Under the pieces are notes generated by a model, which was not told the origin of the DNA, did not search any database, and saw only the letters and a list, made by a program, of their open reading frames with translations. A DNA stretch of 64,000 bases, taken from Escherichia phage phi92. The stretch is from sequence record NC_023693.1, one strand, 5' to 3'. This document shows, piece by piece, positions 23,670 to 24,336 of the stretch. How positions within the stretch are numbered: the first letter of the stretch is position 1; the number at the start of each line of letters is the position of its first letter. Both the position numbers and the translations under genes were made by a program.

Positions 23670-24101
23670 ATGATGATACTGACTATGTTAATAAACCTAC
23701 TGAAGAATAAATGGGTTAGGTATTTTGTTCTTATTATAGCACTGTTTGGTGGTTTGTATGTTGGTTTAAACAAATTACACGATGACGTGTATGCACAAGG
23801 CTACAACGCAGGTATTGCTAAACAAGAACAAATATTACAACAAAACCAAATTAAAGCAAAACAGCAGTTCGATATCTTACAAGCAAAAGCAGATTCAGAA
23901 AGATCTAAATTGAATGAAAAAATTCATTCATTAACGAAACAAAGAAATGATCTTCTTACACAACTGGATAAGAAGAGTAATAACATAACACAAGAGAGAA
24001 TAGATTATGCGAAAACATCTTCTGGCGCTATGTCTTGTTTTAGCCCTAATGATGACGGGTTGCGCATCATCAACAACAGCTTCCCAGCCTCTATTGATTG
24101 A
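23670..24101 (+). CDS. i-spanin (Rz-like)
   Basis: N-terminal transmembrane anchor, coiled-coil-rich periplasmic part; overlaps out-of-frame lipoprotein gene; exact start uncertain. Confidence 0.55.
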   Translation: MMILTMLINLLKNKWVRYFVLIIALFGGLYVGLNKLHDDVYAQGYNAGIAKQEQILQQNQIKAKQQFDILQAKADSERSKLNEKIHSLTKQRNDLLTQLDKKSNNITQERIDYAKTSSGAMSCFSPNDDGLRIINNSFPASID

Positions 24102-24336
24102 GCAGTGTAAAGCTGTAGCAACACAACAAATAAAAGCCCCTGATTCTGTCAGTATGGAAAAACCATCTACCCCTGTTTTATATACCCCTAATCAAATAAA
24201 GAAAGGAGTTACAAGATCAGAGGTAGTTGATAATCAAACTTTAAACAACGCTTTGTGGGAAAAAGATAGGATAAAACTTATCAGTTTACAAAACTATATT
24301 AAAACATTACAAAGTGAAGGAATAATTTCTAATTAG
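24007..24336 (+). CDS. o-spanin (Rz1-like outer-membrane lipoprotein)
   Basis: lipobox LALMMTGC after signal sequence; overlaps 3' end of the i-spanin gene in another frame. Confidence 0.6.
   Translation: MRKHLLALCLVLALMMTGCASSTTASQPLLIEQCKAVATQQIKAPDSVSMEKPSTPVLYTPNQIKKGVTRSEVVDNQTLNNALWEKDRIKLISLQNYIKTLQSEGIISN

What the first reader, a model, noticed from the sequence alone, without database searches (positions are those of the whole stretch)
23670..24336. Overlapping spanin pair placed directly upstream of the terminase with no adjacent holin or endolysin
A membrane-anchored coiled-coil protein and an out-of-frame lipoprotein (lipobox LALMMTGC) overlap by about 95 nt, the overlapped Rz/Rz1-type arrangement. 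No endolysin or holin gene is recognisable nearby, so the lysis genes appear dispersed. The only holin-like candidate is a two-helix membrane protein at 50569-50835 among the tail genes.
Basis: partly seen in the sequence, partly recalled or inferred. Interest (0 to 1): 0.35.

Follow-up and report, generated by a model that had tools for sequence, protein, structure and literature searches.

The report
Known phi92 spanin pair beside terminase
The two overlapping genes are a real outer-membrane-disrupting "spanin" pair, but they are identical to the pair already catalogued for coliphage phi92, and lysis genes scattered around the genome are normal for large virulent phages such as T4.

Summary
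Confirmed, and already known. ORF 23670-24101 (143 aa) has an N-terminal membrane helix, a long helix and a Cys-bearing tail. ORF 24007-24336 (109 aa) has the signal MRKHLLALCLVLALMMTG|C with Ala at +2. They overlap by 95 nt in the +1 frame, and the second ends 8 nt before the large-terminase start. Both proteins and their 24-nt upstream sequences are identical to the phi92 entries of Kongari et al. 2018 (SpaninDB: overlapped, 143/109 aa, overlap 95, +1). The coordinate offset is exactly 32000, so the window is probably phi92 itself.

The pair is conserved across Stephanstirmvirinae with the TMD, lipobox and both Cys invariant. The o-spanin is under purifying selection (dN/dS about 0.13).

No endolysin lies in the window. 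Relatives carry a T4-lysozyme-like endolysin about 31 kb upstream and a signal-peptide SleB-like hydrolase beyond the right edge. T4 is a precedent for such dispersal, and a BME3 paper describes it for this genus. The "holin" at 50569-50835 is an unproven membrane protein and not the only small one.

Function is inferred; no experiment exists for this family. Side observation: the adjacent terminase carries a 158-aa intein-like insertion inside its Walker A motif.

The parts
23670..24101 (+). i-spanin gene (143 aa; phi92 gp118 equivalent). It is a type II inner-membrane protein.
   Evidence: ORF. PHROG phrog_4297 'Rz-like spanin', E 3.2e-40. 100% identical to the SpaninDB phi92 i-spanin. The AF2 single-sequence model (mean pLDDT 83.8) shows one helix over residues 14-119 and a low-confidence tail over 120-143.
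23712..23768 (+). Codons for the i-spanin transmembrane helix (about residues 15-33, WVRYFVLIIALFGGLYVGL), preceded by K11, K13 and R16.
   Evidence: Kyte-Doolittle 19-residue maximum of 1.84 at residue 15. A hydrophobic N-terminal segment is present in all five aligned orthologues.
24007..24336 (+). o-spanin gene (109 aa precursor, 91 aa mature outer-membrane lipoprotein).
   Evidence: ORF. PHROG phrog_1267 'Rz-like spanin', E 2e-20. 100% identical to the SpaninDB phi92 o-spanin. dN/dS about 0.13 in the non-overlapped part.
24007..24063 (+). Lipoprotein signal peptide MRKHLLALCLVLALMMTG plus the lipidated Cys19 (codon 24061-24063). Residue +2 is Ala and +3 is Ser.
   Evidence: Sequence. G18 and C19 are invariant in five orthologues that go down to 36% identity.
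24007..24101 (+). 95-nt dual-coding overlap. It encodes the i-spanin C-terminal motif (YAKTSSGAMSCFSPNDDGLRIINNSFP, with C123) in one frame. In the +1 frame it encodes the o-spanin signal peptide and first mature residues.
   Evidence: Reduced pS in both frames. SpaninDB lists an overlap of 95 in frame +1 for phi92.
24345..26429 (+). Large terminase subunit (context: the gene immediately downstream, probably co-transcribed).
   Evidence: PHROG phrog_979, E 3.3e-221. Pfam Terminase_6N over residues 201-458.
22936..22960 (.). Bidirectional terminator-like hairpin. It is the inferred upstream boundary of the unit that holds the small genes, the spanins and TerL. A promoter-like site follows at 22983-23011.
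   Evidence: Consensus scan only. Inferred, not shown.
26474..26495 (+). Terminator-like hairpin just after TerL, the inferred downstream boundary of the unit.
   Evidence: Consensus scan only.
50569..50835 (+). Unproven.
   Evidence: PHROG phrog_1322 'membrane protein', E 4.1e-27. One clear TMD over residues 29-47. BME3 annotates the orthologue as 'membrane protein-holin', whereas the BASEL record says 'hypothetical protein'.

Best explanation
This is the two-component spanin of a phi92-like E. coli myovirus (genus Justusliebigvirus), in the overlapped gene architecture.

What the sequence shows:
- The 143-aa protein has the layout of a type II inner-membrane protein. Basic residues precede one TMD, followed by a periplasmic helix of about 85 residues and a conserved Cys-containing C-terminal tail.
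- The 109-aa protein has a signal peptidase II signal with a lipobox and no Asp at +2. It would therefore be lipidated and sorted by Lol to the inner leaflet of the outer membrane.

Inferred from the lambda Rz/Rz1 and T4 PseT.3/PseT.2 model:
- The two C-termini bind across the periplasm, and homodimers are locked by Dsb-made disulfides (C123 in the i-spanin, C34 in the o-spanin).
- The complexes are held apart by the peptidoglycan mesh until the endolysin destroys it.
- The complexes then collapse and fuse the inner and outer membranes, removing the last barrier to release of progeny.

Inferred from gene order and consensus scans: the pair is expressed late from the same transcript as the large terminase rather than from a lysis cassette. 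The endolysin and the still unidentified holin are encoded tens of kilobases away.
For: - Identity to a catalogued entry: both proteins and their upstream 24 nt are identical to the phi92 i- and o-spanin rows of Kongari et al. 2018, Additional file 2. The geometry is the same (143/109 aa, overlap 95, +1 frame), and the family '(phi92, phAPEC8)' is listed under overlapped spanins.
- Family matches: PHROG Rz-like spanin hits at 3.2e-40 and 2e-20.
- Topology signals: TMD and lipobox. AF2 gives a helix over residues 14-119 at high confidence. SpaninDB lists one coiled coil at residues 54-115 for the identical sequence.
- Conservation: the pair is found in 134 phage records, all under spanin or hypothetical-protein annotations. 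Five orthologues going down to 32-36% identity keep the TMD, G18-C19, C34 and C123, and keep the +1 overlap.
- Selection: purifying selection on the o-spanin and reduced synonymous change in the overlap.
- Position: adjacency to TerL is conserved in phAPEC8 and Klebsiella phage phi1_175008.
- Lysis enzymes encoded elsewhere: a PF00959 endolysin and a PF07486 hydrolase in relatives.
- Precedent: unlinked spanins in T4 that complement lambda RzRz1.
Against: - No member of this family has been tested experimentally. The PHROG names and GenBank labels derive from the same bioinformatic criteria, so they are not independent evidence.
- There is no sequence match to Pfam Rz or Rz1, and only a sub-threshold match to NCBIfam P2_Rz1 (E 0.18, 12 bits against a cut-off of 27).
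- The o-spanin is long (91 mature residues), not proline-rich (5 Pro), and has a helical C-terminus. SpaninDB flags the combined periplasmic length of 201 residues as 'Too long?'.
- The operon structure rests only on consensus scans, and the promoter count there is no higher than in shuffled sequence.
Confidence: 0.9

Rival explanations
1. The pair is not a lysis device but a membrane-protein and lipoprotein pair with another role, for example superinfection exclusion or receptor masking. Some phage outer-membrane lipoproteins do this (T5 Llp; from my own knowledge).
For: Function is untested. The genes are not next to any holin or endolysin. The o-spanin is atypically long and partly helical.
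Against: The architecture matches every bioinformatic spanin criterion: TMD protein, +1 overlapped OM lipoprotein, and periplasmic Cys in both. No other spanin pair was seen in this window or in the annotated genomes of two close relatives. A phage of a Gram-negative host with a soluble lysozyme-type endolysin is expected to need a spanin. Being unlinked to the lysis enzymes is also true of the proven T4 spanins.
Confidence: 0.05
2. The 143-aa coiled-coil protein is the missing small terminase subunit or another packaging factor, because it sits directly upstream of the large terminase and no TerS is annotated in this phage group.
For: The position is typical of TerS genes. The protein has a long helix or coiled coil. 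No TerS is annotated in BME3 or EmilieFrey.
Against: The N-terminus is a hydrophobic transmembrane helix, not a DNA-binding domain. The protein is always paired with an overlapped lipoprotein. In the Klebsiella phages FBKp34 and KP13-16 the pair lies about 2.2 kb from TerL, with tRNA genes in between. There is no PDB or Pfam similarity to any TerS.
Confidence: 0.02
3. The 109-codon ORF is not translated from 24007. Either it is a chance ORF, or it starts at the ATG ATG at 24049/24052, as several GenBank records annotate, which would give a protein without a signal peptide.
For: BME3 annotates the start at the position equivalent to 24052 and EmilieFrey at 24049 (MMTGC...). The Shine-Dalgarno sequence before 24007 is weak (GAGAG).
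Against: There is no Shine-Dalgarno sequence at all before 24049/24052. A full n-h-c signal peptide is retained in orthologues with only 36% identity. dN/dS is about 0.13. SpaninDB uses the 24007-equivalent start, and Kongari et al. report 64 wrong-start and 196 missing o-spanin calls among 528 systems.
Confidence: 0.02

Closest known systems
Phage phi92 i-spanin gp118 plus the unannotated o-spanin (SpaninDB, Kongari et al. 2018, PMC6139136)
   Same: Both proteins are 100% identical, and the 24 nt upstream of each gene are identical. The lengths (143/109 aa), the 95-nt overlap and the +1 frame are the same. The coordinate offset to FR775895.2 is exactly 32000.
   Different: Nothing detectable. 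The window is most likely this genome or a near-identical one.
phAPEC8 gp121/gp120 (Phapecoctavirus) and Klebsiella Stephanstirmvirinae spanins
   Same: Same SpaninDB family, overlapped +1 architecture, and position directly upstream of TerL. The TMD, lipobox and both Cys are conserved.
   Different: Identity is 48% for the i-spanin and 65-66% for the o-spanin. FBKp34 and KP13-16 share only 32-36% identity, and there the pair is separated from TerL by about 2.2 kb of tRNA genes.
T4 PseT.3/PseT.2
   Same: A two-component spanin of a large virulent coliphage, not linked to its holin or endolysin. The o-spanin is relatively large with a predicted C-terminal helix.
   Different: T4 has the separated rather than the overlapped architecture. 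Its Cys pattern is 0 in the i-spanin and 2 in the o-spanin, against 1 and 1 (besides the lipidated Cys) here. No sequence similarity was detected. The T4 pair has been tested experimentally; this one has not.
Lambda Rz/Rz1
   Same: Same predicted topology (type II inner-membrane protein plus outer-membrane lipoprotein), +1 frame, periplasmic Cys, and presumed membrane-fusion mechanism.
   Different: Lambda Rz1 is fully embedded, short and proline-rich, and sits in the S-R-Rz lysis cassette. Here the o-spanin is overlapped, has 91 mature residues with 5 Pro, and sits next to TerL. There is no Pfam Rz or Rz1 match.
P2 LysB/LysC
   Same: Overlapped +1 architecture.
   Different: P2 LysB/LysC is part of a lysis cassette (from my own knowledge; not checked here). 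NCBIfam P2_Rz1 matches only the signal-peptide region, below threshold (E 0.18).

Membership tests
Two-component spanin (functional class; criteria of Kongari et al. 2018) | The i-spanin has an N-terminal TMD that gives N-in/C-out topology. | tested here: met
   Hydropathy maximum 1.84 over residues 15-33, with K11, K13 and R16 on the N-terminal side. AF2 helix over residues 14-119. SpaninDB records a 33-residue membrane part for the identical sequence.
Two-component spanin (functional class; criteria of Kongari et al. 2018) | The o-spanin has an outer-membrane lipoprotein signal: a SPII signal, a lipobox Cys, and no inner-membrane retention residue at +2. | tested here: met
   MRKHLLALCLVLALMMTG|CAS, with +2 Ala. 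G18-C19 are invariant in five orthologues. No LipoP or SignalP tool was available, so this rests on a pattern and hydropathy.
Two-component spanin (functional class; criteria of Kongari et al. 2018) | The o-spanin gene is embedded in, overlapping, or immediately following the i-spanin gene. | tested here: met
   95-nt overlap in the +1 frame. The same holds in the orthologues.
Two-component spanin (functional class; criteria of Kongari et al. 2018) | At least one periplasmic Cys is available for intermolecular disulfides (507 of 528 systems have one). | tested here: met
   i-spanin C123 and o-spanin C34 are invariant in five orthologues.
Two-component spanin (functional class; criteria of Kongari et al. 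2018) | Disrupts the outer membrane, or complements lambda Rz-am Rz1-am. | not testable with these tools
   No experiment on this family was found in the library.
SpaninDB family (phi92, phAPEC8), overlapped | At least 40% identity over at least 40% of the periplasmic domain with every member. | tested here: met
   100% to the phi92 entries. 48% (i-spanin) and 66% (o-spanin) full-length identity to phAPEC8.
Lambda Rz / Rz1 sequence families (Pfam Phage_lysis, Rz1) | A match to the Pfam models above the gathering score. | tested here: not met
   Neither model is listed, even at E up to 1.
P2 LysC (NCBIfam NF038368 P2_Rz1) | A score at or above the curated cut-off of 27 bits. | tested here: not met
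   12 bits, E 0.18, over residues 5-46 only.
Holin (for the candidate at 50569-50835) | A small membrane protein with one or more TMDs and a charged C-terminus, genetically or functionally tied to the endolysin. | tested here: inconclusive
   One clear TMD (residues 29-47), a short second hydrophobic stretch, and a charged C-terminus. It lies in the tail-fibre cluster, about 58 kb from the endolysin position in relatives. The PHROG name is only 'membrane protein'.

The most novel reading that the evidence does not exclude
The fixed position of the spanin pair directly in front of TerL in the E. coli and some Klebsiella Stephanstirmvirinae may reflect functional coupling rather than genome history. 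The o-spanin stop overlaps the terminase ribosome-binding site, and hairpins bound the unit. On this reading, the dose and timing of spanin are set by co-transcription and translational coupling with the packaging motor. That would make these phages a model for lysis control without a lysis cassette, in which the real holin is still unidentified.
Probability: 0.1. Interest if true: 0.3.

Novelty: already known. Interest (0 to 1): 0.07.

Why it matters
It matters little as a discovery. This exact pair has been in the published spanin database since 2018, several GenBank records of the genus label it as spanins, and a 2025 paper on phage BME3 describes the scattered lysis genes.

Its practical value is for annotation. 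Many relatives still call one or both genes 'hypothetical'. Others start the o-spanin at MMTGC, which removes the signal peptide that defines it.

The holin of phi92-like phages remains unidentified, and no member of this spanin family has been tested.

Tried and rejected
- Small terminase, gene order: I asked whether the 96/106-aa gene at 23002-23322 is the small terminase, which would place the spanins between TerS and TerL. It matches only a PHROG of unknown function, has no PDB sequence match at E up to 10, and has no similarity to the 99-aa gene that precedes TerL in FBKp34. No conclusion.
- Small terminase, i-spanin itself: this is rejected by the TMD, by the obligatory lipoprotein partner, and by the separation from TerL in FBKp34 and KP13-16.
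- Sequence membership in the lambda Rz/Rz1 or P2 LysC families: not met.
- Endolysin search inside the window: none found. The tail spike at 40869-41606, called 'tail lysozyme' in BASEL, shows only spike domains in Pfam and no lysozyme domain.
- HMM and PDB confirmation that the TerL insertion is an intein: no hits. The single-sequence AF2 model was too poor (pLDDT 42) to justify a fold search.
- Large database searches: I did not run the large protein-database or metagenome searches, because the identity with a published entry made them unnecessary.
- Primary phi92 genome paper (PMC3457257): not held in the library.

Full report
**What the window is.** The region 23000-27000 is 99.0-99.5% identical to about 50 Escherichia phages of the genus Justusliebigvirus, the phi92-like myoviruses of subfamily Stephanstirmvirinae. 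It is 60-80% identical to Phapecoctavirus and to related Klebsiella phages. The gene order is:
- minus-strand nucleotide-metabolism genes;
- a tRNA array of 15 genes;
- a few small genes;
- the two genes of the finding;
- the large terminase, the portal, the head genes, the tail genes and the tail-fibre genes.

**The observation.** ORF 23670-24101 encodes 143 aa and ORF 24007-24336 encodes 109 aa. The second is in the +1 frame of the first, and they share 95 nt. The first protein has basic residues (K11, K13, R16) followed by a hydrophobic stretch over residues 15-33, with a hydropathy maximum of 1.84. A single-sequence AlphaFold model (mean pLDDT 83.8) makes one continuous helix over residues 14-119 and leaves residues 120-143 without confident structure. 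That tail carries the only Cys, C123.

The second protein begins MRKHLLALCLVLALMMTG|CASS, a lipoprotein signal with Ala at +2. It has one further Cys, C34. The stop codon of this gene lies 8 nt before the GTG of the 694-aa large terminase, and the terminase ribosome-binding site GGAGGAG begins on the last base of that stop.

**Is it more than chance?**
- A deliberately loose signal-plus-lipobox pattern hit 4 of 1281 start/ORF combinations in six frames. The other three hits are internal or antisense artefacts.
- Against phAPEC8, the non-overlapped part of the lipoprotein gene has pN 0.205 and pS 0.687, a dN/dS of about 0.13. The i-spanin gives 0.24-0.47 against the three relatives.
- Within the overlap, apparent synonymous divergence drops in both frames, which is the signature of two reading frames under selection.
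- Five orthologues going down to 32-36% identity keep the membrane helix, G18-C19, C34, C123, a C-terminal o-spanin motif (NN.LW..DR....LQ.Y.K.L) and the +1 overlap.

**Identity with a published entry.** Kongari et al. 2018 (PMC6139136) list '(phi92, phAPEC8)' as a two-member family under 'Overlapped' in both their i-spanin and o-spanin tables. Their supplementary tables give phi92 as 'ovl', frame +1, with the i-spanin at 55669-56101, the o-spanin at 56006-56336 and an overlap of 95. The lengths are 143 and 109 aa. [quoted passage not shown]

The sequences printed there, and the 24 nt printed upstream of each gene, are identical to the window. The coordinate offset is exactly 32000 for both genes. 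The window is therefore very probably phi92 (FR775895.2) positions 32001-96000; this is an inference, because phi92 itself is not in the phage collection I could search. SpaninDB notes that the o-spanin was 'not annotated' in the record and flags the combined periplasmic length of 201 residues as 'Too long?'. Several later GenBank records label the pair i-spanin/o-spanin or Rz-like spanin.

**Distribution and position.** tblastn finds each protein in 134 phage records, which appear to be Stephanstirmvirinae judging from organism names and the records inspected. The pair lies directly upstream of the large terminase in Justusliebigvirus, in phAPEC8 and in Klebsiella phage phi1_175008. In the more distant Klebsiella phages FBKp34 and KP13-16 it lies about 2.2 kb upstream, with tRNA genes in between. 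Contact with the terminase gene is therefore common but not obligatory.

Consensus scans place a strong bidirectional hairpin at 22936-22960, a promoter-like site at 22983-23011 and another hairpin at 26474-26495, just after the terminase. This suggests one unit holding two or three small genes, the spanins and TerL. That is only an inference: promoter-like sites are no more frequent here than in shuffled sequence.

**Where the other lysis genes are.** Nothing in the window resembles an endolysin.
- Endolysin: in EmilieFrey, a curated BASEL genome, a 166-aa 'endolysin' lies at 115104-115604 on the minus strand, between a PhoH-like ATPase and a glutaredoxin. It matches Pfam Phage_lysozyme (6.4e-12) and has no hydrophobic N-terminus, so it is a soluble enzyme that needs a holin. 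By synteny this is about 31 kb upstream of the spanins and 7.5-8 kb left of the window.
- Second hydrolase: a 169-aa protein (EmilieFrey 48477-48986; 'putative cell wall hydrolase' in BME3) matches Pfam Hydrolase_2 (SleB type, 6.5e-20). It starts with a typical secretory signal ending AQA|EA. By synteny it lies roughly 8-10 kb right of the window.
- Holin candidate elsewhere: BME3 also annotates a 68-aa two-TMD 'holin' further away, and this protein is absent from the window.

The BME3 paper states that the holin does not precede the endolysin, that proteins near the endolysins lack TMDs, that two small distant proteins look like class II holins, and that a spanin complex is present. T4 has the same dispersal: its spanin genes are not near t or e, yet they complement lambda RzRz1.

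**The holin candidate at 50569-50835.** It has one clear TMD (residues 29-47), a short second hydrophobic stretch and a charged C-terminus. Its PHROG is named 'membrane protein'. BME3 calls the orthologue 'membrane protein-holin', whereas BASEL leaves it hypothetical. The window holds other small membrane proteins, at 9349-9555(-), 15331-15471(-), 19184-19294(+) and 54522-54863(+). Nothing assigns holin function to any of them.

**Mechanism.** The sequence shows the topology signals, the long helix, the conserved Cys residues, the dual coding and the conservation. The rest is inferred from the lambda and T4 work summarised by Kongari et al., as follows. [quoted passage not shown] They are restrained by peptidoglycan, and after the endolysin acts they fuse the two membranes. 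This family resembles T4 more than lambda in two respects: it has a large, partly helical o-spanin, and it is unlinked to the other lysis genes. It resembles P2 in gene architecture. It is not a sequence member of the Rz, Rz1 or LysC families.

**Rivals.** I considered three alternatives:
- a non-lysis membrane protein and lipoprotein pair;
- a packaging factor or small terminase;
- an untranslated or shorter o-spanin ORF.

Each is disfavoured by the conserved paired architecture, the transmembrane N-terminus, the separation from TerL in distant relatives and the selection analysis. None is excluded by experiment.

**Verdict.** The feature is already known (the phi92 spanin pair in SpaninDB) and the arrangement is ordinary for large virulent phages. 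Interest is low.

**Side observations.** The most notable is in the neighbouring terminase. Residues 43-200 (nt 24471-24944) are an insertion that begins with Cys, ends with Asn and is followed by Ser. It splits the Walker A motif GAAG^SGKS. The FBKp34 terminase has the uninterrupted motif, and its flanks are 61-64% identical.

No intein model or PDB sequence matches the insertion, and the single-sequence model is poor. However, its first 70 or so residues are 33-38% identical to segments within genes annotated as RtcB-type RNA ligases of Pseudomonas and Bacillus phages, and within the terminase genes of unrelated coliphages. Residues 23-133 of the terminase also match a long 'PhoH-like' PHROG. 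This pattern fits a mini-intein. One recent paper states that no inteins have been reported in coliphages. I did not follow this further.

Noticed in passing
window 24471-24944 (TerL residues 43-200): A 158-aa insertion splits the terminase Walker A motif (GAAG^SGKS). It starts with Cys, ends with Asn and is followed by Ser. It is absent from the 514-aa FBKp34 terminase. It is 100% conserved in Justusliebigvirus and about 87% in Phapecoctavirus. Its N-terminal 70 or so residues resemble segments in RtcB-type ligase genes and in other phage terminases. It looks like a mini-intein, but no intein HMM or PDB sequence matches, and the AF2 model was poor. A 2024 paper says no inteins have been reported in coliphages.
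   Followed up: partly
window 24049/24052 versus 24007: Several GenBank relatives (BME3, EmilieFrey) start the o-spanin at MMTGC, 42-45 nt too late, which removes the signal peptide. Others leave one or both spanins as 'hypothetical protein'.
   Followed up: yes
window 23564-23710 (+): A 48-aa ORF in a third frame (MITEEQWKEILENAQPMVVKKIVNN...) overlaps the 3' end of the 57-aa DUF7230 gene (23461-23634) and the 5' end of the i-spanin. Its peptide is conserved in phAPEC8 and in Klebsiella phage phi1_175008. The i-spanin start (23670, 23673 or 23685) is therefore not settled. There may be three consecutive overlapping genes, or a frameshift product.
   Followed up: partly
window 20508-20583 (+): ARAGORN cannot assign an anticodon ('tt') to this tRNA. 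Within the gene it differs from the BME3 tRNA-Lys(TTT) by one G-to-T change next to the anticodon loop. It scores 63.7 bits with the Rfam tRNA model.
   Followed up: partly
window 19625-20108: The tRNA callers disagree. ARAGORN alone calls 19625-19700 (Met) and 20019-20108 (Ser). Rfam alone calls a tRNA at 19874-19952, at 38.6 bits.
   Followed up: no
window 54522-54863 (+): This 113-aa protein is labelled 'lipoprotein' in PHROGs and in BME3, yet it contains no cysteine. It has an N-terminal TMD (residues 8-29) followed by a sequence that looks helical, an i-spanin-like layout. It has a weak match to a different Rz-like spanin PHROG (E 9e-4). It sits between the tail-fibre chaperone and a lateral tail fibre.
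   Followed up: partly
window 9349-9555 (-), 15331-15471 (-), 19184-19294 (+): Further small ORFs with hydrophobic helices (68, 46 and 36 aa) and no known function.
   Followed up: no
L008 3477-3986 (-) (EmilieFrey 48477-48986; outside the window): A SleB-type cell-wall hydrolase (PF07486) with a classical cleavable signal peptide, encoded in addition to the soluble T4-lysozyme-type endolysin. BASEL leaves it as 'hypothetical'. A Sec-exported muralytic enzyme in a phage that also has a canonical endolysin is unexplained.
   Followed up: partly
window 28180-28671 (+): The annotations conflict. BME3 calls it 'DNA methyltransferase' and BASEL calls it 'putative prohead protease'. The best PHROG hit is a family labelled methyltransferase, with weaker hits to head maturation proteases. 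The position between the portal and the scaffold genes favours the protease.
   Followed up: no
window 20845-21267 (+) and 21397-21829: A 140-aa ORF inside the tRNA array starts over tRNA-Thr and matches an unknown-function PHROG, plus more weakly an 'integrase' PHROG (9.5e-15). The spacer between tRNA-Gly and tRNA-Gln is about 430 nt here, against about 100 nt in BME3.
   Followed up: no
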